Positions 1,465 to 48,456 of a stretch of DNA of 64,000 nucleotides are shown here, in pieces; positions within the stretch are counted from its first letter, which is position 1; every line of letters starts with the position of its first letter. The stretch covers positions 2,005,929 through 2,069,928 of the forward strand of contig OU015570.1 of NCBI GenBank assembly GCA_907165135.1, read 5' to 3'. The stretch is from Oikopleura dioica. Taxonomy: Eukaryota; Animalia; Chordata. The notes beneath the pieces were generated by a model. It saw only the letters and a program-made list of their open reading frames with translations. It ran no database searches and had not been told where the DNA came from. Both the position numbers and the translations under genes were made by a program.

Positions 1465-1848
1465 TGTAGGGGTTTTACTCTCTCTATCTCTTAGTATGCG
1501 AACAAATAATGACACGGTATTTCGAGGAAAAGAGTTAACTTTATTAGAGCTTTTGTTTGACCACAGGGTAAAATAGAGTGGTGAGGAAGGGTTAGCAGTG
1601 TCTCTTTATATAGTTTTTAGGCTTCCCATGGAATCTTCGAGTTGGCAGGGAAAGTAGAGTATTCAGCCGGCGGCGGAGCGTAGTAGGTGGTTGACAGAGC
1701 GTAGCTCGCTGGAACCAAGAGAAATTCCACGGGAACTGTAGCGCTTTTAGCGGGAAAAGTAAAATTGGGCACGCGGCGTCCAAGAATCGAGTCAGAACGT
1801 AAAATTGCCTCCGACGCGTAAAGCGAGCATTTTTGTAAAACACTTACA
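1465..1848 (-). repeat. 3' LTR of element A
   Basis: Near-identical direct repeat of 26396-26779; adjacent polypurine tract on the minus strand. Confidence 0.95.
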
Positions 1849-2598
1849 TAATCCTTCCCCCTTTTATTAGAGCATTCGCTCCATGAACGCTTGATATTGA
1901 ATCGCGGAGAAACAGTGATCATGCATTGAAGACATCTTTTCAACCGATGAGAGAGCATCATATGGTGTGAGTGTCTTCTTATGAGAATTGTATGAGTATT
2001 TATTTTGTGAGTATTGTCCTTCAATGAAGATGTGATTTGTCAATTTTAATCGCTGTCGCCATGAAGTCGGAGTAGTTCTCGAAACAGCGTTGAGTACCAG
2101 CGAAATGTCACGGCGCTGGGTAACCTTGAAGCGTTAGCCAGGAATCATTTATCGCTGCGCGATTATTTGTTCATCACTTGAGATCTTCGAACAAATTTTG
2201 TTTGATACGTGTTGTTGTGAGAGAGTTGCCAATTCTCAAATTTCCTCTTTAAGAATATAATGTTTCGATTTTTGACCATCAGTAAGGCCTGTTTGATGAG
2301 CAAAATACGATGTCAAATATTCAGAAAGTTGAAATTGCCTGAGTGATTGAACCTCTTAACGTGTGAACTTGACGTTGTGAGCTGACATTTGAGCGTGGCG
2401 ATTCCGGTTCTTGATTATTTGAAAATCATCAATCTCGGGGTTCTTGCGAGCATCCTTCATGATGATTGGTTCGAACTTTACCATTGTTTACGTAAACTTG
2501 AATGATCATCAGGTCTTGAGTATTGTGGAGATTTGCCAACACGTGAGAGTCTGAGCAAGCCAAGAGGGGCGTACCTTCCCCCTTTTTATTTTGAGCAG

Positions 2599-2692
2599 TC
2601 ACTTTCTTGGTCTGAGACATTTTGACCAGGTATCTTCTTCCTTGAAAAGACTTTCCAGATCCAGTGAGTCTTGAGATTTGCTTGTTTCAGGA
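2599..2692 (-). pseudogene. C-terminal tail of element A pol, displaced by the insertion of B
   Basis: Removing B and one GGA joins ...APKQNL to PETSKSQDSLDLESLFKEEDTWSKCLRPRK*, in frame. Confidence 0.8.
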
Positions 2693-3038
2693 CGTTATGA
2701 GTCCCGCAAAATCAAACACTCGTTTAGTTTAGGTCCGGACTTTCGTCCCTTTATTTGCACAGATACCGAAATACAGTGAGAAGAGTCTTCTAGCTGCGTC
2801 GGCGTAGGCTGGACCAAGACGAACCTGAAGATGGTTTAGTAGGGGCGTTCTCTTTCTCTTACTGCCGAAAAGGCTGGGGCTTTCCCCTTACCTCGCTGGA
2901 CTTCTGCTGACGTCTGAGCGGGTCTCAGGCGCCAAGGAAGTCAGCTAGATAATGGCCTTTCCGGAGGGCAAGCTGTCGGTTTCCCTCGACTCGTTCCGTT
3001 TGCCCGACGGGCACCGGAGCGCATACTCATTCGTAACG
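2693..3038 (-). repeat. 3' LTR of element B
   Basis: Direct repeat of 22438-22783; CGTTA..TAACG terminal inverted repeat. Confidence 0.95.
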
Positions 3039-3269
3039 TCCCCCTTCTTCACCTGAAATGCCATTATCGGCGTTGGCCGTTGCCGTTACCCCATCTTCTC
3101 TTCGCCTTTGGCTCGTCGTACCGGTCGCCGGGGCGCTTGAATCCTTTTCCTGATTCGGAAACGAATCCTCCTTTTCGGTAGTCAACGCTCGAACGTCCTC
3201 CGGTTAGCACTTTCCATCCGCGCATGAAATTAGGCAGACGCTGGGCTATGAATGTCGTTATTATCCTTG

Positions 3270-4365
3270 TTAAATAGTTCCGCTTACTTTTTGGACAACT
3301 CCGTTGTTCATCGTGAAGCCTCGCAATTTGCCAGAGTCCGACACGGTCACGAGCGTATTCCCTTGGAATTGGTCGAAGTTAGCCACTGCCGCAATCTTCT
3401 TCAGCGCTGATTCGTTTGTCAGATAGTTGAACGTGCCTTGCAGCGTCCATCTGGACATTGTCATCAGCGAGCCCTTGTAACCGTCCATTTTAGCCCTGTT
3501 TTCTGCGAAGATCGCTCTGGCGGCCTTGGCCCAGTCCACGATTTCGTCGTTTGATCCGCATTCTGGGAACTCGGGCAGTCGTCGGGTGATGTCGAATTCC
3601 GAGCAAAATCGTTCGAACGCATCCACCGATCCTTGGGCAATGCTTGCACACGTCGTCTCCGATGTTTGCTCTTCAATGAAACGCTCGACGTCCCGCATGG
3701 AATCCACTTCTTGTAGAGACACTCGAGCGCCGTTGTCCGAGGTGACGCCAGTTCCGTGTTTGTGCCACACGTGGAGGATTAAACCGGCCAGCTGCTTCGG
3801 GGCTTCGGAGCAGAGCTTGTACAACTCCTTTTGAGCCCAGACCGTCAAGCATACCAATGGAGCAGCGAGCGGCTGATGCACTCGCTATAAATTATAGCCT
3901 ATAATACGCAGGTTAGTCGGGGTTTTCCCAGTTTATTCTTACGTTTTCTGGCAGGGCGTAGACCCCTTTATCGATATCCGCCATTTTTGTCATCCAATTA
4001 CCGACGTCGGTCAAGAAATTGGAGCATTCCGGGTTCTTTGACACCTTCGCCACAAACGACAAATTTGTGAAAGCGCTCATGAAATTGCCCGGCCGGACCC
4101 CAGCTTTTAATGAAGCCATGAGAGCGTCGTCCTTTGAGTCGCTTGTGTGTTGTTCGAGCTCAGCGATTTGGTTTTTTGACGCTAGCTTTGTATCCGGCTC
4201 TGCTTCTGCCATTTCCAGGAAAGAAGGCAGGAAGCTCGAGGGTCCAGCGCTCGTTCCCTGATTCGTTCGCGTGGAGGACCCTTTCTCCTCCGCGTGCTCC
4301 GCCCCGGGCGTTTCATCCAACGTTGCTTTTTTCAGCTTATCGCCAATTTTTTTCACTTCGACCAT
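3270..4365 (-). CDS. Accessory gene 1 of B: two exons (4365-3943, 3884-3270), ~345-aa unknown protein
   Basis: 58-nt intron 3885-3942 with GTAAGA donor, CTAAC branch-like motif and TTTATAG acceptor joins the two listed ORFs in phase 0. Confidence 0.8.
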
Positions 4366-4389
4366 GCTTAAACAAACTTATTAAGGCAC

Positions 4390-4880
4390 CTGGACGATTT
4401 CCGCCGCATAGAGAATGCTACAGCGATGCAGGAACTTTCGCAGAACTCGCGACGTCGCGACCAAGGATTCGACTTTGCGCGTATCGAATATTCCCTTACT
4501 TCTCCGCATATGCGCCGTGCTCAACGTTTCCAGGGGAAAGGGCCCGTTACGTGTATGTTAATCTATTACAGGAGGCGTTTGATAACAAGGACATCAAGGA
4601 ATCCGATCTTTTTCGTGGGGCATTTTATGCTAAGGCGTATTTTGATGGTAAAATTACCGATTAAATTTTTAATGATTATGCGTAAGATTTTGTTACTGGA
4701 GGGGCGCGTGCAGGTTTGGTGAAAGTGATTATTCCGCCGTATTCGCGACACAACAGCGTCGACTTTCGCGTGATGTTTCGGAGCTACTGCCGTTCCGTAG
4801 ATGCAGCTGCCGCCGAATTCGGTGCCAATGAAGACATGCTGGTGTTCGCTAAACGGTTTGGAATTCTTCGCGGCCAATAG
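4390..4880 (+). CDS. Accessory gene 2 of B (antisense): spliced ORF, start unresolved
   Basis: A 39-nt AT-rich GT-AG intron at 4648-4686 joins ...AKAYFD to DFVTGGARAG...ILRGQ* in frame; no in-frame ATG found. Confidence 0.55.
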
Positions 4881-5121
4881 CTAACTTAATTTTAGGTCCT
4901 TGTTGAATCGCGCCTTGAAATTTCTTACCGTGACTTCGTAGGAAGCGGCTGAGCTTATGGACGAGACGGGTTTTTGCGGGGAGTAGGATTTTCTTAATGC
5001 TCTTATTTAGGACATTACGAGCACGAAAACGAAACTCTAGAAGGTTCGTGGAGCACCTACGGGTTTGACGATCTGCAGTTTCTATACATATGGGTTTTTC
5101 GATTCGTTCAGGTGGCAACAT
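4849..5121 (-). CDS. Accessory ORF 3 of B, 90-aa basic protein
   Basis: ATG-initiated ORF packed between neighbouring ORFs; no recognisable motif. Confidence 0.4.
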   Translation of the reverse strand: MLPPERIEKPICIETADRQTRRCSTNLLEFRFRARNVLNKSIKKILLPAKTRLVHKLSRFLRSHGKKFQGAIQQGPKIKLAIGREEFQTV

Positions 5122-5153
5122 TACTCGTCGGCGACCTCTTAACTTTCATTTAG

Positions 5154-6027
5154 AAACTGACGGAGCCTGACTTGGCCATCGAGTTCGCCAACACGTTAAT
5201 AGTGCCGCGAAGCGAACTGGAGAACGACTTTACCTTTATTCATCGCTTCTTGAATTGTTCGCCTCACCGACCTCGAGTTCTGCGGTCGATCCTACGGCAG
5301 AGTCCAGGCATATTATCGATCCTTAATTTACGGTTTAGTAGGGCTCCAACTTCGCGCGTCGGAAGAAGTGTGGCCCGGGTTTGATCTCGATTTGTTGCTA
5401 TTCTTCGCCATGGACTTGTACCTTTCGGACGAACCACACCCCTTCCTGGGCTCAGTAAGTACCTGTACTCTCAGCTAGCGGCCAAAATCCGTCGTTACCT
5501 TCGTAAGCCAACTCTGACGTTTTGTTCAGGACGAGTCCAGCTCGCTCATCTGTATCGCCGTTGCTTGATGGCCGCCACTCCGTTCTCGGAGCGTCTCGTG
5601 CTGAAATATGGATTTTATCCATTGTTTTCCGACATGGTCACGCGCGCCTTCGTTTACCCCGGGTCATTTCGACAGGTAATACCTGATCCATGGAGGGATC
5701 CCTTCGAAGCTACCCCCGAGGACTGTTTCTACATTCACCGAGACCGTCGGAGAAACCGTAAGTTGATTATTTTTTCAAACGTGAATTATGATTAACTAAT
5801 TTTTTTAATTTCTAGGGATGGTAAATCTCATTCCCGAGGGCCTCGGCGAGTTGTGGCTTGGGGCTGAATACCTGCGTCTCTACCCCCGGGGCTTGCCCGA
5901 TACTGGCTCACTGGCTATCATCCCCATCGCTGAGGCGATTACTGAGGGCGAAAATGCAAGGCGACCCCTTTGCGACGGCGTGGAAGATCTTCGATACCCT
6001 TACCGAGTTGACGTACCTGATTTTTGA
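5154..6027 (+). CDS. Accessory gene 4 of B (antisense): spliced, with one internal TGA at 5382
   Basis: One frame is open from 5154 to 5757 except for a single TGA; a 58-nt GT-AG intron at 5758-5815 joins it in frame to ORF 5818-6027. Confidence 0.65.
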
Positions 6028-6459
6028 GAAGCGACTTCACTTTCTCCGCCGCGAGCTCTGAATCCAACTGGTCCGTCCCCTGCATGCGTCGCGCTTCCAC
6101 TAACTTCTTGAACGCTTTTAACTGTTACTCGATACTCTGACATGTGAAATATACGAAAAATTTAGTAACTTCCCTTCGCTGTCTTTTTTCGTCAGTTCGT
6201 TGACGGTTGTCGTAATTACATCAAGCTCGATCGCGCGTTCTAGAGCCATTTCGATTGCCAGAATGCTTCTTTCGCGTTTCCTTACCACGACTGTTTGGAC
6301 CAGAGATGATTCTAGGTCGACAGCCGGGTCCACCGTCCGTTTGAGTCGTTTTGGGAGCGTGAAGGCGTAGTCCTCGTTTTCCATGGCCCGTTCGCGTTTC
6401 AAGCCGCGTCGGTTCATTCTGAAGCGGTTAGATTTAATCGGACTTTTCACCAGCGCCAT
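6000..6459 (-). CDS. Accessory gene 5 of B; probable second exon via a non-canonical donor
   Basis: ATG ORF 6459-6118 runs into an AT-rich intron-like tract (GGAAGT..CAG, ~6137-6173); the downstream exon frame is ambiguous. Confidence 0.5.
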
Positions 6460-6496
6460 TTTTATTTCAGATCGCGCGTTTTTGACTTCGGCTGTC

Positions 6497-6974
6497 TCAC
6501 TCCTCGTTTTTCTCGAGAGGAACCCCCAGATCCTAAAGGTAATTTACGAATCTAAAGAGCTGCTCTGACTTACCTCGAGCTGAGCTGCTGCTTTTGCGAA
6601 GGCGTATTGCGCTTCTTTCATTTCTTCGCGAAGCTTTCGTACTTTATCGGCCAGCTCGTGATTGAAACGCTGCTGGATCTTGAAGAGCGAGAGAATCGCC
6701 TTCTGGCGGGTTTTTCTTCGGTCGAGTTGCACTCAACTTTGACCACATCGTCCGAGGCCAGCTCCGTTCTGCAGCCCGGGCAGGTCGTAATTATTCCGTC
6801 CCCTACGCATTTGAGGCAAACCAGGCAGAGTCGGAAGCATTTTTCGTGTTTCTCTTGCCCTTCGTAGCGGGCTCGGTTCGGGTTTCCGTCCTCGAAGGCT
6901 ACGTTGCATCCTTCGCAAAAGTCCGACTCTCTTATGAGGTTTTTCCATGGCTCGTTCATAACTTTACGTGGCAT
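6497..6974 (-). CDS. Accessory gene 6 of B: RING-like zinc finger plus coiled coil (1-nt frameshift, one intron)
   Basis: CEGC..H..C...CLVC..CPGCR; a helical frame resumes after an A-run near 6715; 41-nt GTAAGT..TTTAG intron at 6533-6573 in phase 0. Confidence 0.7.
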
Positions 6975-7068
6975 TTTGACGTTTTCCTTTACTTCTCACG
7001 CGGTTGTTTCAGGAACGCCGGCTGCCATTGGCCGTCGACTTTTTCGATCCACGCTGCCTTCGAGCGAA

Positions 7069-7963
7069 ATGCCTACTTCCGTCGCTCCGTCTACGCCTGC
7101 ACAAACCCGAAGCCGATCGAAAAGGAAACGCCTTGATGATTCCATATCGACTCAAATTGGCCGCGAAATTTCAAGGAATGCGAAAATGCCACTGCGTAAG
7201 CGTGCTCGGCGATCCGTCGGTAAGTTTGCTCCCAAATCTCGGTCCTTTTAGTGTAAACGACTTGTAAATAGTCGCTTGTATATGCATCCCGTTAGTCGGT
7301 TTAAATAATACGACATTTGTTTTTAGCGTCGGCGAAGCGGGCGCTGCAAATAACCACCATCAATAAACGCAAGCTTGCTGACCTTGATGGTACCGTTTCT
7401 CATCCTGAAGATTTCAAGCGGGCCAAAACCGAGGTGGAAACGTCTCACGTCGGCTCGCTTTCTCCCGTGAAAAATGATGACTACGAGTACGAACCCATTC
7501 CTGATGCCACCGACGAGAAGAAAATTTTTGAATTTATAGATGAGTGCTATGACGCTGTTTCGACGCCTCCCCCATCTTCGTTTGGGCTTCGGTCTCGTGG
7601 CTATTCGCAACCTGTTTCAACTGGGGAGCTCCGTCGCTTCCGTTGGCTTCAGGAGTCCAGAACGTTTGGAAATTCGCCTTTTGGGTAATCTCAGATGGGT
7701 TCGTAAATGCTTATCGACTTTGTTTTAGGGTGAAACTTGAGCGGGTTTTCCCACTTTTTCCCGAGTTTGACGTGGCTTTCCTCGGCTCCTTTCGTCCACA
7801 AAACGATCTCTACGTGCTTCATCGGCTTTTTCAACTACGCAAGCAACTTTATGAAGAGTGCACTCCGTCCCAACTTTCCATCGGGACTCTGGAGAGCCCC
7901 TATCAGGATTTCCTTCCTTTCTTTTCGTATGAGAATTTTTGCGACTTGAATCAAGCCCCTTAA
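7069..7963 (+). CDS. Accessory gene 7 of B (antisense): three exons (7069-7219, 7327-7684, 7729-7963), 247-aa protein with basic NLS-like motifs
   Basis: Introns 7220-7326 and 7685-7728 (GT-AG) both join the listed ORFs in frame; total 744 nt ending in TAA. Confidence 0.78.
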
Positions 7964-8551
7964 ATTAGAAAATCAAGGAACGGGGCTGAGACGGAGAGAG
8001 TCTCGAACAAATTGAGACCTCCTTATCAGAAAATGACCTGTATCACGTGATCACGTGGTCAGACCAAAAAATTTTCAATTAGAATTTTTTTAGTTGGGTC
8101 CAAATACCTATTGTCCCAAAATTTCAGCCCACTAACATTGAATGTTCTAGTGAAGGACTTATTTTCAATTTGTTACTATGTTACATAACAGTGTTATGTA
8201 GCACTTAAATGCCGATTGTGAGTCATCGGTGAGAGCTTCACTAAATTTTTTTTTTGAATTTTGATCAGAAGTCGACGGCGCATCGATTCCGACCAAAAAG
8301 AGCACTCAGACTTGAGGCGCTCAAAAGATAGTCCTTTATGGGGCCGAAAAGGGTTGAAAAACGAAAAAATTTTTTTCAAAAAAAAAAATTTTGTTAAGAA
8401 GTCGGGTATGATCTTTCACCATGCCGAGTTTCAACAAGATAGGATCTATAGGGAAAAAGTTGATTTTTTTGTAAATTCACCCTACCAATGGGTTAAGGGG
8501 GTGGTGGTCGAGAAAATTTTTTTCGAGTTTTTGAAATTTTTATATTATTTT

Positions 8552-8993
8552 TGACACGACTTGTTATTTTGACTTTTGTAAAATTTTAGTAATTTTTTAC
8601 AAATCTCTTACTTTCGCGCCACTTAGACAATTATAGAGATTTTTGTAAAATTTTAGTAATATTTTACATATTTCTTACTCACTCGCCACGGACTTTAGAT
8701 ATTCCGACTTTGTAAATTTTAAGTAATATTTTACATATTTCTTACATATTTTGATCTGACTTGTACAAAAACCTTTATTCTGTCCTATTTTAATGTGCGC
8801 TGACCCGATTACAGTTATCGACGTGACGAATCGACGATTGCAATCATAAACAACTGACTTATTTCCCAACTTTGAAACACCTGACTGACTCTGACTACCT
8901 TTATAAGCGATTTCTGCCCTGCAAAAAACATTCAAATTCAATAAAACCTCGATCGACTTTAAATTTTCGTTCCAGTCTTGTCAATTCTTATCA
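8552..8993 (+). repeat. 5' LTR of element C (contains ~67-bp internal triplication)
   Basis: Direct repeat of 16426-16867; TTTTGTAAAATTTTAGTAAT units at ~8574, 8641 and 8709. Confidence 0.97.
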
Positions 8994-10108
8994 TGGCGAC
9001 CACGCTAAGACACCCAATCGAACTTCTCGAAGCCTTCGAGGACAACACACTTCCTAAGACGAAAATAACGACAAAGACGACAAAGAGACAGTTAAAAAGC
9101 CTAGAGACAGACCTGCGAGCAAAAATGGAACGAATGAAACTGATTTTCGACACTTCACTGAAGCTTCACGAGATTAAAGAAAACACAAGTGAGAAAACAG
9201 CCCTTGAAACTGAGTTCAAACGTACCCGCCGGAACATCTGCTTGACTCACCTCGATACTACTTTCCGCGAGCGCTACGAAGACGAATTCGAAGACATTAA
9301 GGGCTCATCCGACTTTTTTGACCTCCTCCACCAGATAATCGGCCAAGAAAATTCAGACGAAGAAGCAAAAGGGGCCCGACAAAAATTGAACACAGTCAGT
9401 CGACGAATCGAAGAAGAAGAAACATTCTCACGATTTCACACTCGGCTAGAGAAACTTGCGACCACCGCAAGCAAAGGTAATGCTACGCTTCAGAAACATT
9501 TTTTGGACGAGGCATTCAATGCGAATCTGACGCCAGAACTACGACGATATCTGCTGGACCAAGGCAAATCATCATGCGGCACCAATGAGACAGCGAAATA
9601 TCTCGACCAGATGAAAAAGCATAAACGCCGGATCGAGATCAAAGCAGTTTCCGCAGAAGATACAATGCTGCGAGAACAAGTCACTTCCCTCACTCATCAA
9701 TTTTCGACGCTTCCGACTCGTGAATTTCTCATGGAATCTCTTCAGTCGACCCTTTCTTCAATGATGGAACAAAAAATGAACTCATTTAGACAAGAATTCA
9801 TCGATGTAAACAAAGTTCAGGCAAGTTTTCAGCAAAAACAACCAGCACAACAGCCAAGAAAATCCTACGAACAACAGCAAGCCATCAAAACGACTGCTCA
9901 CTTCACATCTGAAAGACGCGATGAGCCGTACCAATCAAGACAACCAAGACAATTCGAACGACGACAGGACGGAGCGCCGGTGATCTGTTTTGCATGCGGA
10001 GTCAAGGGACACTCAAAGAAGAATTGCCGTGGCACTGTTGTTTGCCATATCTGCAACGAACGTGGCCACATCAAGGATATCTGCCCCCAACGCCTGTCAA
10101 AAAACTAG
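8993..10108 (+). CDS. gag: Gag with two CCHC zinc knuckles
   Basis: First ATG at 8993; CFACGVKGHSKKNC and CHICNERGHIKDIC. Confidence 0.93.
   Translation: MATTLRHPIELLEAFEDNTLPKTKITTKTTKRQLKSLETDLRAKMERMKLIFDTSLKLHEIKENTSEKTALETEFKRTRRNICLTHLDTTFRERYEDEFEDIKGSSDFFDLLHQIIGQENSDEEAKGARQKLNTVSRRIEEEETFSRFHTRLEKLATTASKGNATLQKHFLDEAFNANLTPELRRYLLDQGKSSCGTNETAKYLDQMKKHKRRIEIKAVSAEDTMLREQVTSLTHQFSTLPTREFLMESLQSTLSSMMEQKMNSFRQEFIDVNKVQASFQQKQPAQQPRKSYEQQQAIKTTAHFTSERRDEPYQSRQPRQFERRQDGAPVICFACGVKGHSKKNCRGTVVCHICNERGHIKDICPQRLSKN
8994..9004 (+). promoter_or_regulatory. Primer-binding site of C (TGGCGACCACG, tRNA-Arg-like)
   Basis: Directly abuts the LTR end; complementary to a ..CGUGGUCG-CCA 3' end as in animal tRNA-Arg(UCG). 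Confidence 0.75.
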
Positions 10109-13100
10109 GAAATGGATCTTATGACTCGTCACATAAGGTCCAAGCCGCCGTCTCGTCTATCGTCAGCCGAGTTGGCCCAAAACTTCTCTCATCAGCAATA
10201 ATTTATGGTCAGCGCACTAATTTTCAGATAGACACCGGCGCTCAGGTGTCATGTCTACCCCGTTCCCTAATTCCGTCTCATCTTCAATCGCGTATCGTCC
10301 CATCTCCTGTACATCTCCAGTCCTACAATGGTACCGAAATACAAGTCTACGGCTGCATCTCAACAAGCTTCAATATCGGCGATATCGCGATGGAAAAATG
10401 CATCTTTTATGTGGTTGATGATCACTGCAGCCCAATTTTAGGGACCCCTGAACTAACAGAAAACGGACTTCTCATCGATCTTTACAAAAGTGTTCTCCGG
10501 CAGGGGAATACTGAAGAAAAACTCCAAATTTGCACGAGCCCCGCTACAGGAATCAAATCGATTTCGAAAACAAAATTCTTCTCAGCAACAGCCGTGTCAT
10601 CAGCACCGATAACCATCATGCCGAAATCATCTACTTTCATCGACATAGATCTCAAATCCTGCCCTACAAGCTATATTTGTACTGTCCCAGAAAACGCCAG
10701 CAATAAAAACCTCGAAATCTACGACCAATGCGTTCAACTTGGAAGCCTTCAAAGTAAGACAAGAATTCATATCGCAAACAAATCAGCTGTCCCAATCTTC
10801 CTAAACAAGAACGCTGTTGTTTGCCAAATCAAAGAAGTTGAAATAAGAATTCCGGAGCCGGCAATACAAGGCAAATTCAATGAAATTGTGCGCGAACTAA
10901 GTATCGGAGACGTTTCGCCGGAAATACGAAGGAAACTTGAAGAACTTATCATGGAGTATACTGATGTCTTCGCCGTCGAAGACGAGAAACTCGGAACAAC
11001 GGACGCAATGTCGTATAAGATTGATACAGGTGACGCTGCGCCGGTGGCTTCACAGAGATATAAAACGCCCTATTATCTCCGGAAAGAGCTTAGGCGGATT
11101 ATCGACGCAAACCTTGCATCCGGACTCCTGGAACCCTGTTCAAGCCCGTGGGCGGCACCTGTCCTTCTCGTCAGGAAAGCCAATGGAAAATGGCGTCTCG
11201 TCTGTGACTACCGAAAGCTCAACGCAGTCACCATCGCGAATCAGTACCCTCTGCCTGATATTGACGGGCTGATAGACCAAATGGCGGACTCGACAGTCTT
11301 CTCAACTACAGATCTCTTCACTGGTTTTCACCAAATACCATGCGACGAAGAAACTAAACAGAAGGTCGCGATAACAACCGATTTCGGGCAATTTACTTGG
11401 TCGGCCATGCCAATGGGTGGTAAGAACGCTCCAGCAGTATTCCAAATGATGATGGATAAGATCTTTCAACACATCCCAAGCAGCCAGCTCGCAATCTACC
11501 TTGACGATCTTTGCTTGCATTCGCGGACAATGGAAGATAATCTAGACGTCATCGAAAAGGTCCTCATGACTCTGAGGAAGAACAACTTGAAAATACGCGC
11601 GGCAAAAACGGAATTCCTTAAGAAAAGAATCAAATTTTGCGGCGCAATCATCGAAAATGGATTCCGGTCCCCAAATCCTGAGAAAACTAAAGCTGTACGC
11701 GAGCTTACACGACCAACAACAAAGAAAGAAGCGTCAAGTGTCTTTGGACTTCTCAACTATCACCGTGCCTTTATTCCTCACTTCGCATCGAAGGCAGCGC
11801 CAATCAACAAAGCAATGAGTAAGGGATTCAAATGGACGAAGGAAGCAGACGATGCACTTACTCTGCTCAAGAACGAAATTGGGGACTACGTTGACTCTTT
11901 GAAGATACCAGACCCAAACTCGGGCAATTTCGCGATTGAGACTGATGCCAGCGAGTCAGGCATAGGAGCAGTCCTGCTCTATCGTAAATCCGACAACGAT
12001 CGACTTCTTCCCGTGGCATACCTCTCCCAAAAATTTGATGCCGCCCAGAAAAACTACAATATCTGCGAGAAAGAATTGCTAGCTGGGAAAAAAGCGATGG
12101 AGAAATGGTCACATTACCTTCTTGGAAGACCATTCATTTGGTTTACGGACAATTCTGTCGTTAACTGGGCTCACAGAATCATGAGCAGGAAGCTTAAAAT
12201 AGCAAAATGGCTCGCGGAGATAAGTGACTTCGATTTCAAGACTGTGATGAAGCCGTCGAAAGAAATGCAAGTATCTGACTGCCTGTCAAGGGACCACGGA
12301 ACCTCCACAAGTATCTCCATTAATGTCGTCAAACAAAATGACTTTTTGTTCCTCCAGCAGTCCGACGATATCCTCAAGGAAATCCTTCATTTTCACCAGA
12401 TTGACCGCTGGCCAAATTATCCCTCAGAAGAAATAGTGAAATTCAAGCGGATACGTGACAAGATTGTGATCGGAAAAGAAGGTCTCCTCGGCATCGAAGA
12501 CAATGGCTTTAAAGTGATTCCCCCAGCCTGCCTCATACCAGACATCCTCCGGGAATATCACGAGAATGCTGGACATCCAGGCATTGGCCAGACCCTTGAC
12601 AATATAGAAGCAAAGTATTTTCGACCTGGAATGAGAGCGACAGTGACAGACCATATTAGATCATGTCTTGACTGCCAATTGATCAAACCGGTGAACAATC
12701 CACTGAACGCCCCACTTGGTCATGTCAGGGCCCCAACGAGACCCTTTCAGCGATTTTCGATCGACCTGGTTGGCCCTTTACCACTGACAGACAATTACAA
12801 ACGATACATCTGCGTCAGCACTGACCTCTTTAGCAAGCGAACTAATGCAACAGCCCTTCGAACCAAAACACCCGAAGAAGTATTAGAAGCTCTTCAACAA
12901 GAATGGCTCCGAAACCCAAACTTACCAGCAGAAATTCTCATGGACAACGGGGGCGAATTCAAAGCCACGAAGGAGTGGTGTGAAGAAAAAGGTCTGAAAG
13001 TGTCACTTTCTCCCGCCTATCATCCGCAGACGAATGGCGAGTGCGAAAATCGGAACAGAACAATAAAGTCAAGACTCAAACTGGCTTGCCAAATGGAAAA

Positions 13101-14328
13101 CTGGGACCTGCACCTCCCTTATGTGATACATCAAATGAATTCTGCGAAGCATTCTGTGACAAAAGCAACGCCATTTGAGATCGAAACCGGGTATAGGGGG
13201 CAAAATGTTAATGACAAATTTCGAATGGAGCCGGAGCGAAAAGAAGTCAGCTTTGAAAAAATCCAGAAGAAGATATTGGAAAATCATGAAAAGCGTCGGT
13301 CATCAGACGAAACGGTTCACAAATTCGAAGAGGGAGATCTTGTTCTCTGCAAAAACATGGACCCTCTTGAAAAAATCTACAAATGGACTGGGCCGATGAA
13401 GATAACGAAGGTTAAGAAACAGGGCCTCAGCTTTACCTTGGTAAATGAGACCTCTGGCAGGGAACTAAGTCGCCACATATCACATCTAAAACCCTTTGTG
13501 GAAAGACCGTCATCCCCAGACTGCCAGAACAAGCCTGCTCCAGAACCTCAGACGCCGAAAATCACGAAACGAGACACACGGAAAAGAACGTCATACTCTA
13601 TCCGAACCCGTAGTCAGACGAAACCGGACTCACTGCAACAAAAACCAAGCACCTTAATCTTAAGCCAATCAAATGTCCCGAATGTCGATGATATTGAGGA
13701 AAGAAACGCAGAATCATCAACATCAAGCACTTCCCTCGAGGACAATCATCAATCTCCAATATTGCAAAGTCCGACTAATGAGACAATCTTTTACGACGCC
13801 GAATCGCAACAAGCAACTGATGAAAATGAGTCAATTCACAGTGATTCGACAGAAATTGCAGAGTTAACGGACAATGCCTCAATCTCACAGCCACCAAGAA
13901 AACTTGTTTCTCCTGTGGTCCAAAGAATTGCGAATCTACACGAAAGAGCACTGGATAAATTTATCCGCGATTACAAATGCGGGATAAAAATTGGAGCCTG
14001 GGCCTCTCTTAAAAACTCCAAGGCAAAGAAACTAGAGAAGATTAATGAATGGATCGAAATGAATCATCCGGACTGGGAAAAAGACGACGAGGGCTTCTTT
14101 TTGATCAAGCACAATGCTCTGATGCTTGAAAGGAGGACCTACCTGAGTGCGTTCACAATCGTTGAGATGAGCGTCCTTGCAAAACACTTGGGACTGACAA
14201 TAGAAACTCAGGGAAAGTCGAAAGGCGAACTTACAGCTGAAATCACGACGAAAGCAAAGCAAAAATACCCGTTCCTCAAAACAACGGCGAATGGAAACCT
14301 TATAATCGACCCCGCTCACTTTGCGTAA
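9994..14328 (+). CDS. pol: Pol (protease, RT, RNaseH, integrase, C-terminal extension), probably expressed as Gag-Pol
   Basis: IDTGAQ, YLDD, ETDASESG, HENAGHPG..CLDC, SIDLVG, DNGGEF, HPQTNGECE. Confidence 0.97.
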   Translation: MRSQGTLKEELPWHCCLPYLQRTWPHQGYLPPTPVKKLGNGSYDSSHKVQAAVSSIVSRVGPKLLSSAIIYGQRTNFQIDTGAQVSCLPRSLIPSHLQSRIVPSPVHLQSYNGTEIQVYGCISTSFNIGDIAMEKCIFYVVDDHCSPILGTPELTENGLLIDLYKSVLRQGNTEEKLQICTSPATGIKSISKTKFFSATAVSSAPITIMPKSSTFIDIDLKSCPTSYICTVPENASNKNLEIYDQCVQLGSLQSKTRIHIANKSAVPIFLNKNAVVCQIKEVEIRIPEPAIQGKFNEIVRELSIGDVSPEIRRKLEELIMEYTDVFAVEDEKLGTTDAMSYKIDTGDAAPVASQRYKTPYYLRKELRRIIDANLASGLLEPCSSPWAAPVLLVRKANGKWRLVCDYRKLNAVTIANQYPLPDIDGLIDQMADSTVFSTTDLFTGFHQIPCDEETKQKVAITTDFGQFTWSAMPMGGKNAPAVFQMMMDKIFQHIPSSQLAIYLDDLCLHSRTMEDNLDVIEKVLMTLRKNNLKIRAAKTEFLKKRIKFCGAIIENGFRSPNPEKTKAVRELTRPTTKKEASSVFGLLNYHRAFIPHFASKAAPINKAMSKGFKWTKEADDALTLLKNEIGDYVDSLKIPDPNSGNFAIETDASESGIGAVLLYRKSDNDRLLPVAYLSQKFDAAQKNYNICEKELLAGKKAMEKWSHYLLGRPFIWFTDNSVVNWAHRIMSRKLKIAKWLAEISDFDFKTVMKPSKEMQVSDCLSRDHGTSTSISINVVKQNDFLFLQQSDDILKEILHFHQIDRWPNYPSEEIVKFKRIRDKIVIGKEGLLGIEDNGFKVIPPACLIPDILREYHENAGHPGIGQTLDNIEAKYFRPGMRATVTDHIRSCLDCQLIKPVNNPLNAPLGHVRAPTRPFQRFSIDLVGPLPLTDNYKRYICVSTDLFSKRTNATALRTKTPEEVLEALQQEWLRNPNLPAEILMDNGGEFKATKEWCEEKGLKVSLSPAYHPQTNGECENRNRTIKSRLKLACQMENWDLHLPYVIHQMNSAKHSVTKATPFEIETGYRGQNVNDKFRMEPERKEVSFEKIQKKILENHEKRRSSDETVHKFEEGDLVLCKNMDPLEKIYKWTGPMKITKVKKQGLSFTLVNETSGRELSRHISHLKPFVERPSSPDCQNKPAPEPQTPKITKRDTRKRTSYSIRTRSQTKPDSLQQKPSTLILSQSNVPNVDDIEERNAESSTSSTSLEDNHQSPILQSPTNETIFYDAESQQATDENESIHSDSTEIAELTDNASISQPPRKLVSPVVQRIANLHERALDKFIRDYKCGIKIGAWASLKNSKAKKLEKINEWIEMNHPDWEKDDEGFFLIKHNALMLERRTYLSAFTIVEMSVLAKHLGLTIETQGKSKGELTAEITTKAKQKYPFLKTTANGNLIIDPAHFA
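10099..10105 (+). promoter_or_regulatory. -1 ribosomal frameshift heptamer A AAA AAC
   Basis: In the gag frame immediately before the gag TAG; pol is in the -1 frame. Confidence 0.8.
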
Positions 14329-14551
14329 AACTTCAAACAAAAGTTCAAACCTGGCGGACACTCGACCCAAAACTCGACTTGAAAATTAGGTCAACAGCTC
14401 ACATCCCGCCTTAACCATGTCAATCAAATCTGATCAGCTGACCCGATTACGTTTCACACTTGACCTGCTGATTCCAATCATCAGCTGATGGCGCCCAAGT
14501 TTAGCTGCATATATACTCCAACGACCCGCCGACTCATCACAAAATTCGGAA

Positions 14552-16402
14552 ATGAAAAACCTTTTCTATCTCCTCACCTTTTCTCTCGCCGACTACATCT
14601 TCGACCGCAAATCAGGCGTCATCTTCAAGGAACTCGACGATATTTACGTTTTTGACTCAGAGATACCAAGAGACATCGCGATTATGGTCAACAGCCCGCG
14701 CAAAAAATTCCGAGACGGTCTTTCGCTTGACTGTGGCGACACCTCAACTGGGCTGCCTCCGAAGCCGGGCAACTTCTTCGGACTTAACAGCAGCAAAATA
14801 ACAACGGAAAGCGAGTTCTGCACAAAAGCCTTCGACACATTCGACAATATCGTCCTCAGCTACATCGGCAGCGACTTGCAATTCACCGACAAATACAATG
14901 ACACATTCAACAAGATGGTTCATCAACAGCGGGCACGACGAGTTCGAAGAAATCCAGCAGCAATCGGAGGCGTTGCGATCGTGGCGACTGGGGGTTACAC
15001 ATGGTATGTAGACTCAGCCTCTAGGGGACGAGACGAAGAAATCCGCCAGGAAGTTGAACATGAACGCCAACGAATAAGCAAGCTGGAAAACGTCGTTGAA
15101 CTGGTGAAAGACGAGCTCGACCTCGCTGTCAAGAAAATCCGCCGTTCCAATGCACCCATAATCACATGGGGAGGACTTGACATACCTGCTGACGAAAAAG
15201 CGATCAAAGAAATTCTGGAAGGAGAAGGCTCTTCGATCAATCAGTACTTTGCAGAACAATCTCGCGACGATGGAAGACTGCTCGTCAAAGCCGCCCTTAC
15301 GCTCACGAACCACCGACTTCCGCTTTTTTCGATGTTCCTTGATTCGGTTAAGGCTCAATGCATCGCCTTGCAGACTGTGGAAGCAGAAGCCGCGAAGCGA
15401 TTCTGCACGCATTTTGCTTTTCACGTTACCCGCTGGGATACCAACTTGCGATTTATGGGCCTCGGTCTCACCACCTTTAACACGATAAATGGAACGTTCG
15501 CCGAGCAGTTTCGCATCAAGGAAGTTATCGTCAATCTCCGCATCCCAATTCCTCGAATGAAACTTATTGCCAAAAGGTACCAGGTCATCAACTTAGGGTT
15601 CTTCAACGCCGACGGTACCAGATGGAGGCTGGATCTTCCTCAATTTCTTGTAAAGATGCCGTCAAACGAAATCTTGGAAATGAACCCTTCAAATTGCCTC
15701 ACCTTTACGCCTAGTTACAGCTGCGCAACATCGATTCTGGAACCAAATCAATGCGGGGAGAGTGTGCTGGTTCATAACAATACCAAGCTGTGCCAGACAA
15801 TCGAGATGGATAATCTCAAATGCGGCCTTTACGAAGACTTCGAGCGCGCATTCATCTCGATCAGACGCCCATCGACCGTGGAATTCTTCCATCATCATCC
15901 CTCCAAACAGGTTGAGGCCATCGACACCTTCTACAAAACACTCTTTGCCGGAGCTCTCGACTGTGGACCACGAATCCTGAAAATATCAGCCGGACATCAA
16001 TCAGCGAAAGCCACGTCACGAATCAATTACATCGCACCAATGCAAATACGACCAAGAAACATTGAAGACGAAGAAATTGACGCAATGGGCAAAAAGATAG
16101 ATGATTCTTTCCGACAACTTCACAAAATGGAAGACGACTTCAACCTCCGGCACAAGTCAACTCTCCAATTGATGCAAGATACCGCGAAGACCGAAGTCGA
16201 GAGCGCAAAAGACTGGATTTACGATAACTACTTTGCTCCGATTCTTGGTTTCCTTTCAACACTCTCTACACTCGTCCTCCTTATCATCGTTGCGGGATGT
16301 ATCATAAAATTTAAATGCTGCAAAGCGACTCGACAGCCTTACGTCGCCACCCAACTCTCAAGAGCCCAACACTTGTCAAGCCGATCCGAATCCTCCATCT
16401 AG
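14552..16402 (+). CDS. env: Envelope glycoprotein, class I / F-protein-like
   Basis: Signal peptide; furin site RARRVRR followed by a hydrophobic fusion peptide; heptad region; Cys-rich block; C-terminal TM (ILGFLSTLSTLVLLIIVAGCII). Confidence 0.9.
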   Translation: MKNLFYLLTFSLADYIFDRKSGVIFKELDDIYVFDSEIPRDIAIMVNSPRKKFRDGLSLDCGDTSTGLPPKPGNFFGLNSSKITTESEFCTKAFDTFDNIVLSYIGSDLQFTDKYNDTFNKMVHQQRARRVRRNPAAIGGVAIVATGGYTWYVDSASRGRDEEIRQEVEHERQRISKLENVVELVKDELDLAVKKIRRSNAPIITWGGLDIPADEKAIKEILEGEGSSINQYFAEQSRDDGRLLVKAALTLTNHRLPLFSMFLDSVKAQCIALQTVEAEAAKRFCTHFAFHVTRWDTNLRFMGLGLTTFNTINGTFAEQFRIKEVIVNLRIPIPRMKLIAKRYQVINLGFFNADGTRWRLDLPQFLVKMPSNEILEMNPSNCLTFTPSYSCATSILEPNQCGESVLVHNNTKLCQTIEMDNLKCGLYEDFERAFISIRRPSTVEFFHHHPSKQVEAIDTFYKTLFAGALDCGPRILKISAGHQSAKATSRINYIAPMQIRPRNIEDEEIDAMGKKIDDSFRQLHKMEDDFNLRHKSTLQLMQDTAKTEVESAKDWIYDNYFAPILGFLSTLSTLVLLIIVAGCIIKFKCCKATRQPYVATQLSRAQHLSSRSESSI

Positions 16403-16425
16403 AAAACCCGCCGACAAGTCACCGT

Positions 16426-16867
16426 TGACACGACTTGTTATTTTGACTTTTGTAAAATTTTAGTAATTTTTTACAAATCTCTTACTTTCGCGCCACTTAG
16501 ACAATTATAGAGATTTTTGTAAAATTTTAGTAATATTTTACATATTTCTTACTCACTCGCCACGGACTTTAGATATTCCGACTTTGTAAATTTTAAGTAA
16601 TATTTTACATATTTCTTACATATTTTGATCTGACTTGTACAAAAACCTTTATTCTGTCCTATTTTAATGTGCGCTGACCCGATTACAGTTATCGACGTGA
16701 CGAATCGACGATTGCAATCATAAACAACTGACTTATTTCCCAACTTTGAAACACCTGACTGACTCTGACTACCTTTATAAGCGATTTCTGCCCTGCAAAA
16801 AACATTCAAATTCAATAAAACCTCGATCGACTTTAAATTTTCGTTCCAGTCTTGTCAATTCTTATCA
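16426..16867 (+). repeat. 3' LTR of element C
   Basis: Direct repeat of 8552-8993. Confidence 0.97.
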
Positions 16868-17027
16868 ATTTTTAGATTCCTTGATAAAAAAGGAGCATTT
16901 TTGGTCTCTAGCTTTTTTGATTGGACCAACTTTATTGAAGAAAATTTTCGATTTTATACTTTGAAATCGCCATTTTCGGGAGTTTTGAAAATTTTCTCGC
17001 TTTAAAACTCGCTCAATTTTTATGATT

Positions 17028-20000
17028 TCATCCCAAAATGGATTCTCCACCTGAATACACTAGACTAGTTTCCGATGATGATCGCCGATATCTTTCAGAT
17101 CTAGAGAACCAGGCCGATGCTCTCGACAGCGGAAAGATGCCAAGATACCCTGGGCCTTTCGTTTTGTTAATTTTGTCCGGGATAAGCAATTCCATGAGAC
17201 GCGGATCCGTTTTATTCCACATTTCCGCAAGAATGACCGGGCTCAATTTGGCGATCCTGCTGTCTACGGGGAAAGAAAATTTTTCGAAGGACTCGGTGAT
17301 TCTGGTAAGACCAATTTCACGTTTATTTCTTCCCAAAAATCACGTTTCTTGATCCCCTTATTGATGGAGCTGCCATCCATAACAATTTTTACTTTAGAAT
17401 TAGTGCGCAAACCTCTATCAAAATCTGCCACTACCCGTAGTTAAATCTCAGACCCCTTCGCAGCATTATTTTCGCTATTTTTGACGTGATAGATTCTTGT
17501 GAATCCCGACAATACACATGAGACGATGTAAAACTTCATGGTTGATTCCTCGTAGCTTTTATGGCTGTTTCTAGTGACGATATCCGCCAAAAGAACTTCA
17601 CCGATTGCAGACGCGTCCTGATCATCGTATTCTTTCGACCCCGTTACAATCGTTCCTCTATTCCTTTGGTAAGTGCACGAAAGGCAATTCTTGACTTCGT
17701 CCGCCACAACACTTTCCAGCTTCGCGAACCATACTTCCGTCTTCACCAGATTCTTAAGTCTCGAGATTGTACCGCAGTTACCTCGGTGGAACCCTTTCGC
17801 GACCGTCGGGCCGAACGACTCGGGGATGACAACCGGCTCGCAAATTCTGGTTCCAATCATTATCTTCCGCTTCCTTAAAATTGTCGGAGTTCCGTCTTTA
17901 CAAAGGTAAGTTGACCCTCGTAAAGACTCCGCCTTGCGAGCCTTCGGGCCGGTTATCCGCCCGTCTTTCGACTTGGACTCGATGACTCTTGCTGTAGTCG
18001 GGTCACTCTCCTGAACTTACCGCACTAACGACCTCTCTTTTAAGAAGCCGCTGCCTTGGTGGGCCAGAATCCGGTCGGCCAGCTTCTCGAAGCTTCCATC
18101 CTTAGTTTTTCTAGCCGCGCGTTTCGCTGCCCCGCGGGTCACGATCGCTTCCACCGCTTCTTTCCGCTTCTTCCAGCTCGACACCTGCCGATGTCTGAGA
18201 CCTGGCAGTGCCGCTCTCAGCGCCATTTCGTCGTGGAACCCGAAAACCTCCTCAAACCTATCGAACTTCACAGAAAGGAGTGTCTCCTCGCTGGACAAGT
18301 CCAAATTTGGGCCCAGGATCTCGTTGACCGCTTCTCCACCATCGACAACATTGCACACCGCGCAATTTTCATCACAACCCTTAGTAAGTATTCTGTTCGA
18401 GAGATGAAGTCCGCTAGGTCGATTTGAGTGGACTCGCCTTTTTCGTAGACTATCTCCACGTCAAAACTCAGGAGTTTAACGATTTGATCGTTTATTCTCT
18501 TGTCCAGGCTCAGCTCTTTACCCTGCCTCGCTCTATCGAACAATTTCTTCACTGATAACGAGTCCGTAATGATAACCACCGGTCTAGATACGAAATCGAT
18601 TTCCCAGCAGAAGCATAAAGTTGCGCATAAGATCCCGTGCAGTTCTAATTGACACGAGCTCCACTGAGTTTTCAACTGCGAATCTACTCTCTTCCTCGAC
18701 CAAAGGCGGACGATCTGCGTCTTGTCGTCCTTCTTCTGGTATAGATAGCCTCCTGAACCGAGATTCGAGCTGTCCACCACCAAAAAGGTATCTAAGTCCT
18801 TTTCGATAGGGAACAGGTCGACCATCTGCGTGTTAATGGCCGTCGCAAGCTTCTCGTAGCATTTTCTTAGCTCCGGCGTCAAATTTACGTAATCGCTGAG
18901 CTTCTTCGACCCATACGCTGCCTCATTCAATTTCCACATCATCTCGGTGCGATGTGGTAGCCCGATTGACAGGTAATTGATAATCTGATGTACCGTTTTA
19001 ATTGTTTTACTGTTTTTATTGTCGTTGGGTTTTCCGCCAGCGCTTTTTTCAAAATGTGCGATGACATGCAGATTTTCCCGTCTTTAACCCGTCTACCGAG
19101 AAGAACGATGTCCTTCGATCCAATCACGCACTTTGACCCTTTCAGACGCAGGTTCCGGTAAGCAAGCGTTTTGAAGACCTTTCGAATCCTTTCTACCAGT
19201 TCCTCGAACGAATCCGCTACAATTAAAAAGTCGTCCATGTAAATCGATGTATACTCCAGATGATCGTACATTATCCTCGTAATCATTTCCCTCGCTAGCA
19301 CCGGACTGCTTACCCATTCCATTGGCAACCGACGGTAAGCCAGCTCGCCAACTTTTGGGTGAAGAATAACGAAGTGCTTTCAGAGCTCCTCTTCAATTTC
19401 GAAGCAGTGGAACATCGCCCCGATGTCGACTTGGGCAACGAATCCTTTCTTCGTGAAAGGGGCTGCCAGTTGAAGGATGCGCTGGATTGAGTCGGTCTGC
19501 CTCGCAACGTGATCGGTTTTGTCGTTTATTCCGCTGCGTGCGCAATCGCCAACTACGCGCACGTTCGACGCTGTGAGCTCAACGCAGGCCTCTCCGTTCG
19601 GTCCCTTCTTGGAAACCCCGAAGAAGCTCATGTAATTCGCCGCCGTCATGTGCTTCGGCAACACCGTCAGCACTCCTTCCGCAGCCTCATGATCCAGCTT
19701 CTCCTCGATCGCCTTCATCACGCTTTCGGGTAGGTTTTTCCCGTACCCGATCGGCGCAGACTTCGGGCTTCGATCTGAGTTACCTGCGTCTATTCTAGCG
19801 TGAACCTCGAACTCCTTGTCCGCGACATGACCAACTGTACCCTCGAAGATTGCTTCGAATTCATCCAGGACGTTGTTAACTACAGCGACTTGCTCTGCCG
19901 TCAGCGTATCCCCGGCTGGGTCCACCTTCACCTCGGCTCTCGAGTTCTTCTTCCTGTTCTCCGCGTTGATCCGTTCCAACTTTCTTGCCCAGGTGCGTGT

Positions 20001-22351: not shown

Positions 22352-22437
22352 CTTGCGCTACAGGGAAAACGCCCTAGCGGCGAGGTTCGATTAAGGGGCT
22401 CTTGTTCGTACCAAGCTCAAGAGAGCTTCAGTCACCA

Positions 22438-22783: not shown

Positions 22784-22786
22784 GGA

Positions 22787-48455: not shown

Positions 48456-48456
48456 A

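What the first reader, a model, noticed from the sequence alone, without database searches (positions are those of the whole stretch)
3039..7963. LTR retrotransposon B carries a ~4.7-kb cassette of about seven small, mostly spliced genes on both strands
Seen: between B's integrase and its PPT/3' LTR are tightly packed ORFs. Short introns (39-107 nt) repeatedly join them in frame: 3885-3942, 4648-4686, 5758-5815, 6533-6573, 7220-7326 and 7685-7728. The PPT abuts the left LTR, so this DNA lies inside the element. Known: gypsy elements usually carry nothing or a single env in this position. Inference: this is a complex retroelement with a virus-like accessory module (RING-like, basic/NLS and unknown proteins). 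It is the best candidate in the window for an undescribed system.
Basis: partly seen in the sequence, partly recalled or inferred. Interest (0 to 1): 0.88.

Follow-up and report, generated by a model that had tools for sequence, protein, structure and literature searches.

The report
Retrotransposon carrying intron-bearing accessory genes
A divergent LTR retrotransposon of the tunicate Oikopleura carries, next to its 3' end, a block of about five to seven small genes with predicted short introns; at least one is conserved by selection in diverged copies and keeps intron-length DNA in the element's own reading direction, which likely means the element's RNA genome escapes normal splicing.

Summary
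All six listed introns are GT-AG and join open frames, and two more were found. The block abuts element B's PPT. Diverged (~80%) copies in other sequencing contigs, and an NCBI Oikopleura dioica gene model, carry the PPT-proximal gene (ORF1, ~400 aa), two of them joined to B-like LTR sequence. In them the exons keep frame and indels pile into the predicted intron; amino-acid identity (110 of 137) far exceeds neutral expectation (rough dN/dS 0.06-0.24). [quoted passage not shown] Limits: no RNA test was possible. Only short conserved pieces support the other genes. Functions are unassigned apart from a RING-like lead. This copy is defective, and host repeats plus nested element C separate the cassette from a truncated integrase. 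A distant relative (L001) has different extra genes after pol, including an antisense, likely spliced membrane protein. Verdict: a new variant of complex gypsy-like element; interest 0.74.

The parts
2693..3038 (-). B 3' LTR (346 bp; termini CGTTA...TAACG; AATAAA at 2755)
3039..3052 (-). B polypurine tract, abutting the 3' LTR
3064..4365 (-). ORF1, sense to gag-pol, 3 predicted exons (4365-3943, 3884-3288, ~3245-3064), about 398 aa; no membrane segment; basic tail with a bipartite NLS-like motif kept in the homologue
3885..3942 (-). ORF1 intron 1 (58 nt, GTAAGA..ATAG); about 42-44 nt in two diverged copies
3241..3287 (-).
4426..6062 (+). Antisense coding block, 1-4 genes, unresolved; predicted introns 4648-4686, 5112-5153, 5758-5815; pieces 4558-4591 and 5149-5173 (an acceptor plus exon start) conserved in a diverged copy
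6118..6459 (-). Unspliced basic ORF, 113 aa, NLS-like motifs; no homologue seen
6497..6974 (-). RING-like zinc finger frame (ATG 6974) followed by a coiled-coil frame and sense intron 6533-6573; the two frames are out of step in the window; pieces 6903-6959 and 6570-6624 (ending at the donor) conserved in a diverged contig
7069..7963 (+). Antisense 3-exon ORF (247 aa; introns 7220-7326, 7685-7728), basic NLS-like N-terminus, acidic middle; stop lies in a host repeat, so likely truncated
7951..8551 (.). Host-type repeats: a 44-nt very high copy unit (7951-7994; also in the array at 48650-49008) and dispersed repeats from 8037 on
8552..16867 (+). Nested element C (LTRs 8552-8993 and 16426-16867, 100% identical; TSD ATTTT; gag, pol, env-like ORF with a membrane segment)
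17154..21674 (-). B gag-pol (PR-RT-RH-IN order), broken by frame changes and stops; integrase tail missing
22429..22437 (-). B primer binding site TGGTGACTG, directly after the 5' LTR; same in L001 and element A
22438..22783 (-). B 5' LTR; flanks give a 3-bp direct repeat (GGA at 2690-2692 and 22784-22786)
1465..26779 (-). Outer element A (LTRs 1465-1848 and 26396-26779, 97.9%), into whose integrase tail B is inserted

Best explanation
The segment is likely a heritable accessory-gene cassette of a divergent gypsy-like LTR retroelement lineage of Oikopleura; it sits inside element B next to the PPT, and its first gene is conserved beside B-like LTR sequence in diverged copies. Shown: position inside one LTR pair; ORF1 in three lineages about 15-22% apart; frame conservation; intron-length DNA kept in the sense direction. 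Inferred: the genes are transcribed from internal promoters on both strands as separate short, spliced mRNAs, as shown for Tor3b/4b env (PMC4402516), while the LTR-to-LTR genomic RNA is packaged unspliced, so the 42-58-nt sense introns survive reverse transcription. Predicted and untested: the products are nuclear regulators and host antagonists rather than an envelope. ORF1 (helical core, basic NLS-like tail) would be the RNA-binding factor that shields or exports unspliced genomic RNA, Rev-like in role (about 20% on its own). The RING-coil protein would be an E3 ligase against a silencing or defence factor (about 35%). The window's copy is likely a dead one that lost the DNA between the integrase core and the cassette.
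For: One LTR pair (4 of 347 differences), PBS, PPT and a 3-bp flanking repeat enclose pol and cassette inside A's integrase tail. X1 record 6 (3782 bp, 21% diverged) projects to start at 2721, inside the LTR. Joints of the same depth (97.6) link LTR pieces to ORF1 and on to 4558-4591 and 5149-5173 (the short pieces are assigned to that record by equal depth). X5 record 26 (15-22% diverged) projects to start at 3033, at the LTR edge, and has a different gap pattern, so it is likely a third lineage. NCBI protein P0006 (O. dioica gene model) is 80% identical to ORF1 exon 2, joins exon 3 at the predicted point, and reads on into sequence 65-68% like B's LTR over 31 residues. In X1 record 6, 14 of the 15 gap letters (all 6 listed gap events) fall in the 58-nt intron, of 684 aligned bases. 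X5 record 26's alignment breaks at 3288 and 3890, the predicted exon edges. 110 of 137 residues are identical against 81-93 expected under neutrality; 4, 0 and 0 of 5000 simulations reach it at 16, 19 and 21% distance; rough dN/dS 0.06-0.24. No cassette frame has a membrane segment (max hydropathy 1.45, against 2.58 for C's env). Relative L001 also has extra genes after pol, one antisense with a frame that stays open for 412 aa across an AT-rich GT-AG stretch. Intron sizes fit the host's median of 49 nt (PMC8008620, passages).
Against: No intact pol-to-cassette junction was seen in any copy; here host repeats intervene. L001's 1.5 kb after pol shows no similarity to the cassette. Support for the genes other than ORF1 is 25-57-nt pieces, some below the tool's 30-letter caution. 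The 7 differences in the near-identical X3 copy are 4 non-synonymous, 1 synonymous and 2 non-coding, so there is no selection at that depth. Intron-like motifs occur in intronless pol controls too. The dN/dS estimate pairs a protein and a contig that are only assumed to be the same lineage; P0006 and X1 record 6 may be one copy. The codon model gave little support to most plus-strand frames, though it is biased to the retroelement's sense strand. No family, fold or distant homologue was found for ORF1.
Confidence: 0.62

Rival explanations
1. The cassette belongs to a non-autonomous, B-LTR-flanked element that lacks gag-pol and borrows B's enzymes; this locus is a recombinant of that element and an autonomous B, joined at the repeat block.
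For: The pol-cassette junction is broken by host repeats and the integrase tail is missing. Diverged contigs link the cassette to the LTR, not to pol. L001 has other genes after pol.
Against: Both LTRs and a 3-bp flanking repeat mark one insertion into A's integrase tail, so the recombinant would have had to form before or during one integration. The sense introns would still have passed through reverse transcription.
Confidence: 0.15
2. Only ORF1, and perhaps the RING-coil gene, are real accessory genes; the rest is a long, GC-balanced 3' region whose frames and introns are partly chance or decayed captured DNA.
For: Frames in 4426-6062 change without evident introns. Intron 4648-4686 has a weak acceptor. 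Motif counts in intronless controls reach 4. The alignment of the diverged copy fails over most of the plus-strand block at the 80% threshold.
Against: The conserved pieces fall on predicted exon edges (acceptor at 5149-5153, donor at 6570-6573). The 3-exon gene at 7069-7963 stays open for 247 aa across two non-3n introns. Contigs of three runs each hold 4 letters more than the window, so some frame changes may be assembly errors (places not shown).
Confidence: 0.15
3. The block is a host gene cluster or a piece of a DNA virus or DNA transposon that entered B at the DNA level and spread by DNA duplication, which would explain the introns without any escape from splicing.
For: Host-type short introns, genes on both strands, and RING look-alikes among giant-virus and eukaryotic clusters (scores 0.87-0.90, lead only). 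High-copy repeats flank one side.
Against: No terminal inverted repeat or target duplication bounds the block (none among the inverted repeats listed), and it ends at a perfect PPT. B's LTR pair is 98.8% identical while the diverged copy's LTR has indels and an unalignable 100-nt stretch, so the pair was likely renewed after the lineages split. The only protein homologue found lies beside an LTR.
Confidence: 0.08

Closest known systems
Tor (Ty3/gypsy Oikopleura) elements, esp. Tor3b/Tor4b with an internal env promoter (PMC4402516; parts 1-4 of 6 and passages read, supplement unreadable)
   Same: Host, LTR-PBS-gag-pol-PPT layout, near-identical LTRs, extra gene space between pol and the 3' LTR; precedent for an internal promoter.
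   Different: The text read describes one env glycoprotein and 4-5-bp TSDs. B has several non-membrane genes on both strands with short introns, CG...CG termini and a 3-bp flanking repeat. B's RT core is only 24-29% identical to neighbours A and C; its Tor group was not determined.
Plant Retand/Grande/RIRE2 elements with additional ORFs (PMC7264820 part 1 of 3; PMC11963269 passages)
   Same: A 3-6.5-kb pol-to-3'LTR region with conserved extra ORFs, often antisense, nuclear, of unknown function.
   Different: Those are mostly antisense TRP28 (PF04195) proteins; the word 'intron' does not occur in the Retand paper's main text. No TRP28 hit here, and the best-supported gene is sense and has introns.
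Bdelloid rotifer LTR elements with diverse ORF3s (PMC5408684, passages) and planarian Burro (PMC6431247, passages)
   Same: Animal gypsy-like elements with non-env cargo; Burro carries RING, BIR and other ubiquitin/apoptosis modules.
   Different: One ORF3 per element with recognisable enzymes, or domains fused into one giant polyprotein; not a multi-gene two-strand cassette with internal short introns.
Penelope-like elements (PMC8557442, passages)
   Same: Retroelements that keep introns after retrotransposition, which the paper calls highly unusual among retroelements.
   Different: Another class (GIY-YIG nuclease, pseudo-LTRs); B has true LTRs, PBS, PPT and an integrase.
Complex retroviruses and foamy-like fish ERVs (PMC2774666, PMC6431247, passages; Rev/Rex role recalled)
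   Same: Accessory genes in sense and antisense; an unspliced genomic RNA must coexist with spliced messages.
   Different: No Retroviridae affinity was shown; the introns here are 40-110-nt host-type introns inside each gene, not long alternative splices from the 5' leader.

Membership tests
Ty3/gypsy LTR retrotransposon (Metaviridae-like) | Two direct LTRs with PBS and PPT | tested here: met
Ty3/gypsy LTR retrotransposon (Metaviridae-like) | pol order protease-RT-RNase H-integrase | tested here: met
   RVT_1 and RT_RNaseH_2 above cut-off; Integrase_H2C2 below cut-off (E 0.006); protease motif DSGA by inspection
Ty3/gypsy LTR retrotransposon (Metaviridae-like) | TG...CA termini and a 4-6-bp target duplication (usual, recalled; 4-5 bp for Tor in PMC4402516) | tested here: not met
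   CGTTA...TAACG termini and a 3-bp repeat; L001's LTR also ends in ACG at the PBS. A and C have TG...CA
Ty3/gypsy LTR retrotransposon (Metaviridae-like) | RT falls in the gypsy clade on a tree | not tested
   No reference RT set was at hand; pairwise identities only
Tor1-Tor4 groups | Pol groups with a named Tor group | not testable with these tools
   Reference Tor sequences not available; nearest named protein is an O. dioica 'unnamed protein product', 56% identical
env-bearing Tor3/Tor4b | Third ORF is a membrane glycoprotein with furin site and C-terminal anchor | tested here: not met
   No membrane segment in 17 cassette frames; the DNA next to pol is missing in this copy, so a lost env cannot be excluded
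Retand-type additional ORFs | Antisense ORF with TRP28 domain | tested here: not met
   Antisense frames present, no PF04195 hit at E 0.1
Penelope-like elements | GIY-YIG nuclease, pseudo-LTRs, no integrase | tested here: not met
RING E3 ligase (6974 frame) | Cross-brace C3HC4/C3H2C3 spacing with a significant family hit | tested here: inconclusive
   zf-RING_4 E 0.084; the 10 best Atlas hits with a family all share one family or clan and the rows shown are RING-type, at 0.87-0.88; weak LIM matches, E 0.7-0.8
RING E3 ligase (6974 frame) | E2 binding and ubiquitin transfer | not testable with these tools
   needs a bench assay

The most novel reading that the evidence does not exclude
A lineage of LTR retroelements that has become a small DNA-virus-like genome: five or more host-style genes on both strands, each with its own short spliceosomal introns, carried through reverse transcription because an element-encoded factor keeps the genomic RNA unspliced. 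Sister lineages (L001) swap in other modules, such as an antisense spliced membrane protein and an arginine-rich peptide.
Probability: 0.35. Interest if true: 0.9.

Novelty: new variant of a known kind. Interest (0 to 1): 0.74.

Why it matters
Introns in the sense strand of a retroelement should be lost at each RNA passage, and the accepted exception is the Penelope class (PMC8557442). An integrase-bearing LTR element that keeps 42-58-nt sense introns across lineages 20% apart would need a way to hide its genomic RNA from the spliceosome, in an animal known for tiny and non-canonical introns. Oikopleura is a laboratory animal with active Tor elements, so the question can be tested with long-read RNA. 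The cassette would also supply several new nuclear proteins that likely act on chordate silencing or defence, and it shows a route from simple gypsy elements to complex genomes independent of Retroviridae.

Tried and rejected
No whole genome was held, so copies could not be counted genome-wide. RNA: no RNA holder listed. Four raw RNA runs laid at 80% likeness gave 2, 0, 0 and 0 reads, none even on the LTR; this is no test. ORF1 exon 2 found nothing among proteins of 112-357 aa, in viral contigs or in metagenome contigs; the longer-protein search gave one hit. B pol frames found nothing in viral contigs. Pfam and PHROGs gave nothing significant for the cassette frames (best hits were coiled-coil matches at E 0.015-0.05 and the RING lead). 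Atlas for ORF1: unnamed clusters at 0.87, recognition below threshold. AlphaFold models of ORF1 exon 2 had pLDDT 41.8 and 37.9, too low for a fold search, so none was run. PDB sequence search: one weak hit (E 0.002) over 35 positions to a chain named RPB_PLP3_R6, set aside. Rfam: none in 2600-8600. The 1.84-billion-protein HMMER search could not be run, so distant homologues remain unsearched. L001's membrane protein shows no similarity to C's env. The bacterial promoter scan does not apply. Earlier-findings look-ups were all empty. X3 record 10 (single LTR running 5.5 kb into other sequence, projected end 16947) was considered as a sign of a second locus and set aside: assemblers can collapse identical LTRs. 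Literature searches listed no paper describing such a cassette in Oikopleura; Volff et al. 2004 is not held and the Henriet supplement could not be read, and either may mention these elements.
Full report
Setting. The window's first 27 kb is a nest of three LTR elements: A (LTRs 1465-1848 and 26396-26779, 97.9%), B (2693-3038 and 22438-22783) and C (8552-8993 and 16426-16867, 100%, TSD ATTTT). B reads on the minus strand. Its PBS (TGGTGACTG) follows the 5' LTR directly, gag-pol runs from 21674 to about 17150, and its PPT (3039-3052) abuts the 3' LTR. The nearest named proteins are Oikopleura dioica gene models: P0003, 56% identical to B's pol, and P0006, 80% identical to ORF1. I therefore infer the host is O. 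dioica. B's RT core is only 24-29% identical to A's and C's, so B is a separate, divergent lineage; its place among the published Tor groups was not tested. This copy is likely dead: pol has several frame changes and stops, and homology to the relative L001 ends at 17154, about 200 residues before L001's integrase ends.

The observation. All six introns have GT..AG ends, are AT-rich, and join open frames. Motif counting alone is not decisive: 5 strict pairs against 0.37 in shuffles (0 of 300 reached 5), but 1, 4 and 2 in three intronless pol stretches. I found two further candidates, 3246/3241-3287 (minus) and 5112-5153 (plus). The resulting anatomy, from the PPT outward: ORF1 (sense, 3 exons, about 398 aa); an antisense block 4426-6062 of uncertain gene number; a 113-aa basic sense ORF; a sense RING-like plus coiled-coil gene; and an antisense 247-aa 3-exon gene whose stop lies in a host repeat. 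Between that gene and pol lie host-type repeats and element C, so the cassette is probably cut short on the pol side.

Other copies. Six runs from three studies hold most of the cassette's words; two are flagged as a possible source of the window. I laid 4 of the 6. X1 matches with 0 substitutions, X3 with 7 and X5 with 31, and X4 is covered in pieces. These may be the same insertion, so they show reality, not mobility. The long X1, X3 and X5 contigs each hold 4 letters more than the window, so some frame changes in the window may be assembly errors; their places were not shown. X3's 7 differences look neutral (4 non-synonymous, 1 synonymous, 2 non-coding), as expected of a dead copy. The informative records are diverged ones. 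X1 record 6 (3782 bp, 21% diverged) projects to begin inside the LTR, and joints of the same depth run from LTR pieces through ORF1 to 4558-4591 and 5149-5173. X5 record 26 (2220 bp, 15-22% diverged) begins at the LTR edge and covers four ORF1-side pieces. A further X1 contig (depth 131) matches 6570-6624, 6903-6959 and 7041-7065 (the tables were truncated by the tool). P0006 joins ORF1's exons 2 and 3 at the predicted point and reads on into B-like LTR sequence. P0006 and X1 record 6 may be one copy. X5 record 26 has no gap where P0006 has a two-residue insertion, so there are likely three lineages including B.

Selection and introns. In X1 record 6, 14 of 15 gap letters lie in the 58-nt intron 3885-3942, out of 684 aligned bases. 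In X5 record 26 the alignment stops at 3890 and at 3288, the predicted exon edges; its four pieces (808 bases) hold 2 gap letters. ORF1 and P0006 share 110 of 137 residues; neutral change at 16-21% would leave 81-93, and 4, 0 and 0 of 5000 simulations reached 110. A rough dN/dS is 0.06-0.24 if protein and contig are of one lineage. Both diverged contigs keep about 42-44 nt at intron 1, and X5 record 26 keeps the length of the intron 2 stretch (123 letters against 122), so the introns were not removed.

Why that is odd. ORF1 and the RING-coil gene read in the same direction as gag-pol, so their introns are in the genomic RNA's sense. B's two LTRs differ at 4 of 347 bases, whereas the diverged copy's LTR has indels and a 100-nt unalignable stretch. 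By standard LTR replication (established knowledge) the pair is renewed at each reverse transcription, so B's cassette has likely passed through RNA since the lineages split and kept its introns. Intron retention through retrotransposition is described as highly unusual and typical of Penelope-like elements (PMC8557442, passages). This step is an inference; gene conversion between LTRs or a recombinant locus could mimic it.

What the proteins may do. No cassette frame has a membrane segment, so this is not an env. ORF1 has no family, fold or distant homologue in the searches that ran; its basic tail has a bipartite NLS-like motif, also present in P0006. The 6974 frame is RING-like as a lead only. 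The 113-aa and 247-aa products have several NLS-like motifs. I commit to: internal promoters on both strands give short spliced mRNAs, by analogy with the internal env promoter of Tor3b/4b (PMC4402516); the products are nuclear regulators and antagonists; ORF1 is the best candidate for protecting unspliced genomic RNA. All of these functions are untested.

A relative. A scan of metagenome contigs with a pol alignment gave 2 loci among 173 candidate stretches. L002 (1.5 kb, 77% in RNase H) covers pol only. L001 (7.3 kb, 58%) has the same PBS and an LTR ending in ACG, a full integrase, then an arginine-rich 80-codon frame and an antisense frame that stays open for 412 aa across an AT-rich GT-AG stretch and ends in a membrane anchor and a basic tail. 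It does not resemble B's cassette or C's env, and the contig ends inside it. So extra, likely spliced genes after pol appear to be a trait of the wider lineage, but B's own pol-proximal genes are unknown.

Comparison and novelty. Extra ORFs between pol and the 3' LTR are known: plant Retand and Grande (PMC7264820, part 1 of 3; PMC11963269, passages), rotifer ORF3s (PMC5408684, passages), Burro with RING and BIR domains (PMC6431247, passages) and fish foamy-like elements (PMC2774666, passages). The Tor paper describes only env as a third gene in the parts read (parts 1-4 of 6 and passages), and the 2026 envelope survey mentions Tor only as tree references (PMC13524379, passages). Nine searches listed no description of a multi-gene, short-intron cassette in an LTR element. 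The 2004 Tor paper and the Tor supplement could not be read and may bear on this. B works like a complex gypsy element but fails the usual terminus and TSD rule, and its RT was not placed on a tree, so I file it as gypsy-like.

Verdict. Real, inside B, heritable and selected for ORF1, likely so for the rest. New variant of a known kind. Confidence in the best explanation 0.62; interest 0.74; the boldest reading has probability 0.35 and would deserve 0.9.

Noticed in passing
L001 5782-7297: Relative of B with an arginine-rich small ORF after pol and an antisense, likely spliced membrane protein (intron about 6481-6413, RSRR site, C-terminal anchor); no Pfam or PHROGs family and unlike Tor-type env C. 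May be a new antisense env-like gene.
   Followed up: partly
window 2690-2697, 3034-3038, 22438-22442, 22779-22786; L001 631-645: B's LTRs end in CG...CG (inverted repeat CGTTA/TAACG) with the PBS directly attached and only a 3-bp flanking repeat; L001's LTR also ends in ACG at the PBS. Suggests an integrase with unusual end and target rules.
   Followed up: partly
window 7951-7994 and 48650-49008: A 44-nt hairpin-like unit (TCAAGCCCC...GGGGCTGA) of very high depth in all four runs, usually flanked by CGGCCCGAAGGGCCG; forms a 56-bp-period array at 48650-49008 and supplies the stop codon of the last cassette gene.
   Followed up: partly
window 14555-16402: Element C's env-like ORF (about 615 aa, RRVRR site, C-terminal membrane segment) has no Pfam hit; C has identical LTRs and open frames, so it is a very recent insertion.
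   Followed up: no
window 4366-4382 (minus) and 7003-7012 (plus): T-rich AG just upstream of ORF1's ATG and 57 nt upstream of the 7069 ATG; possible trans-splice or 5' UTR acceptors (host trans-splicing recalled).
   Followed up: no
window 7041-7065: A 25-nt stretch between the divergently oriented RING and 7069 genes is conserved in a diverged contig of X1 and X4; possible shared promoter element.
   Followed up: no
window 6461-6466 (minus): AATAAA in the element's sense just after the coil gene's stop; an internal poly(A) signal that full-length RNA would have to read through, if real.
   Followed up: no
window 48441-48664, 52699-53457, 56929-60702, 46795-47382, 58485-59339, 61444-61917: Telomere-like CCTAAC repeats, large inverted-repeat pairs and transposase- or integrase-like ORFs elsewhere in the window; the region is repeat-dense.
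   Followed up: no
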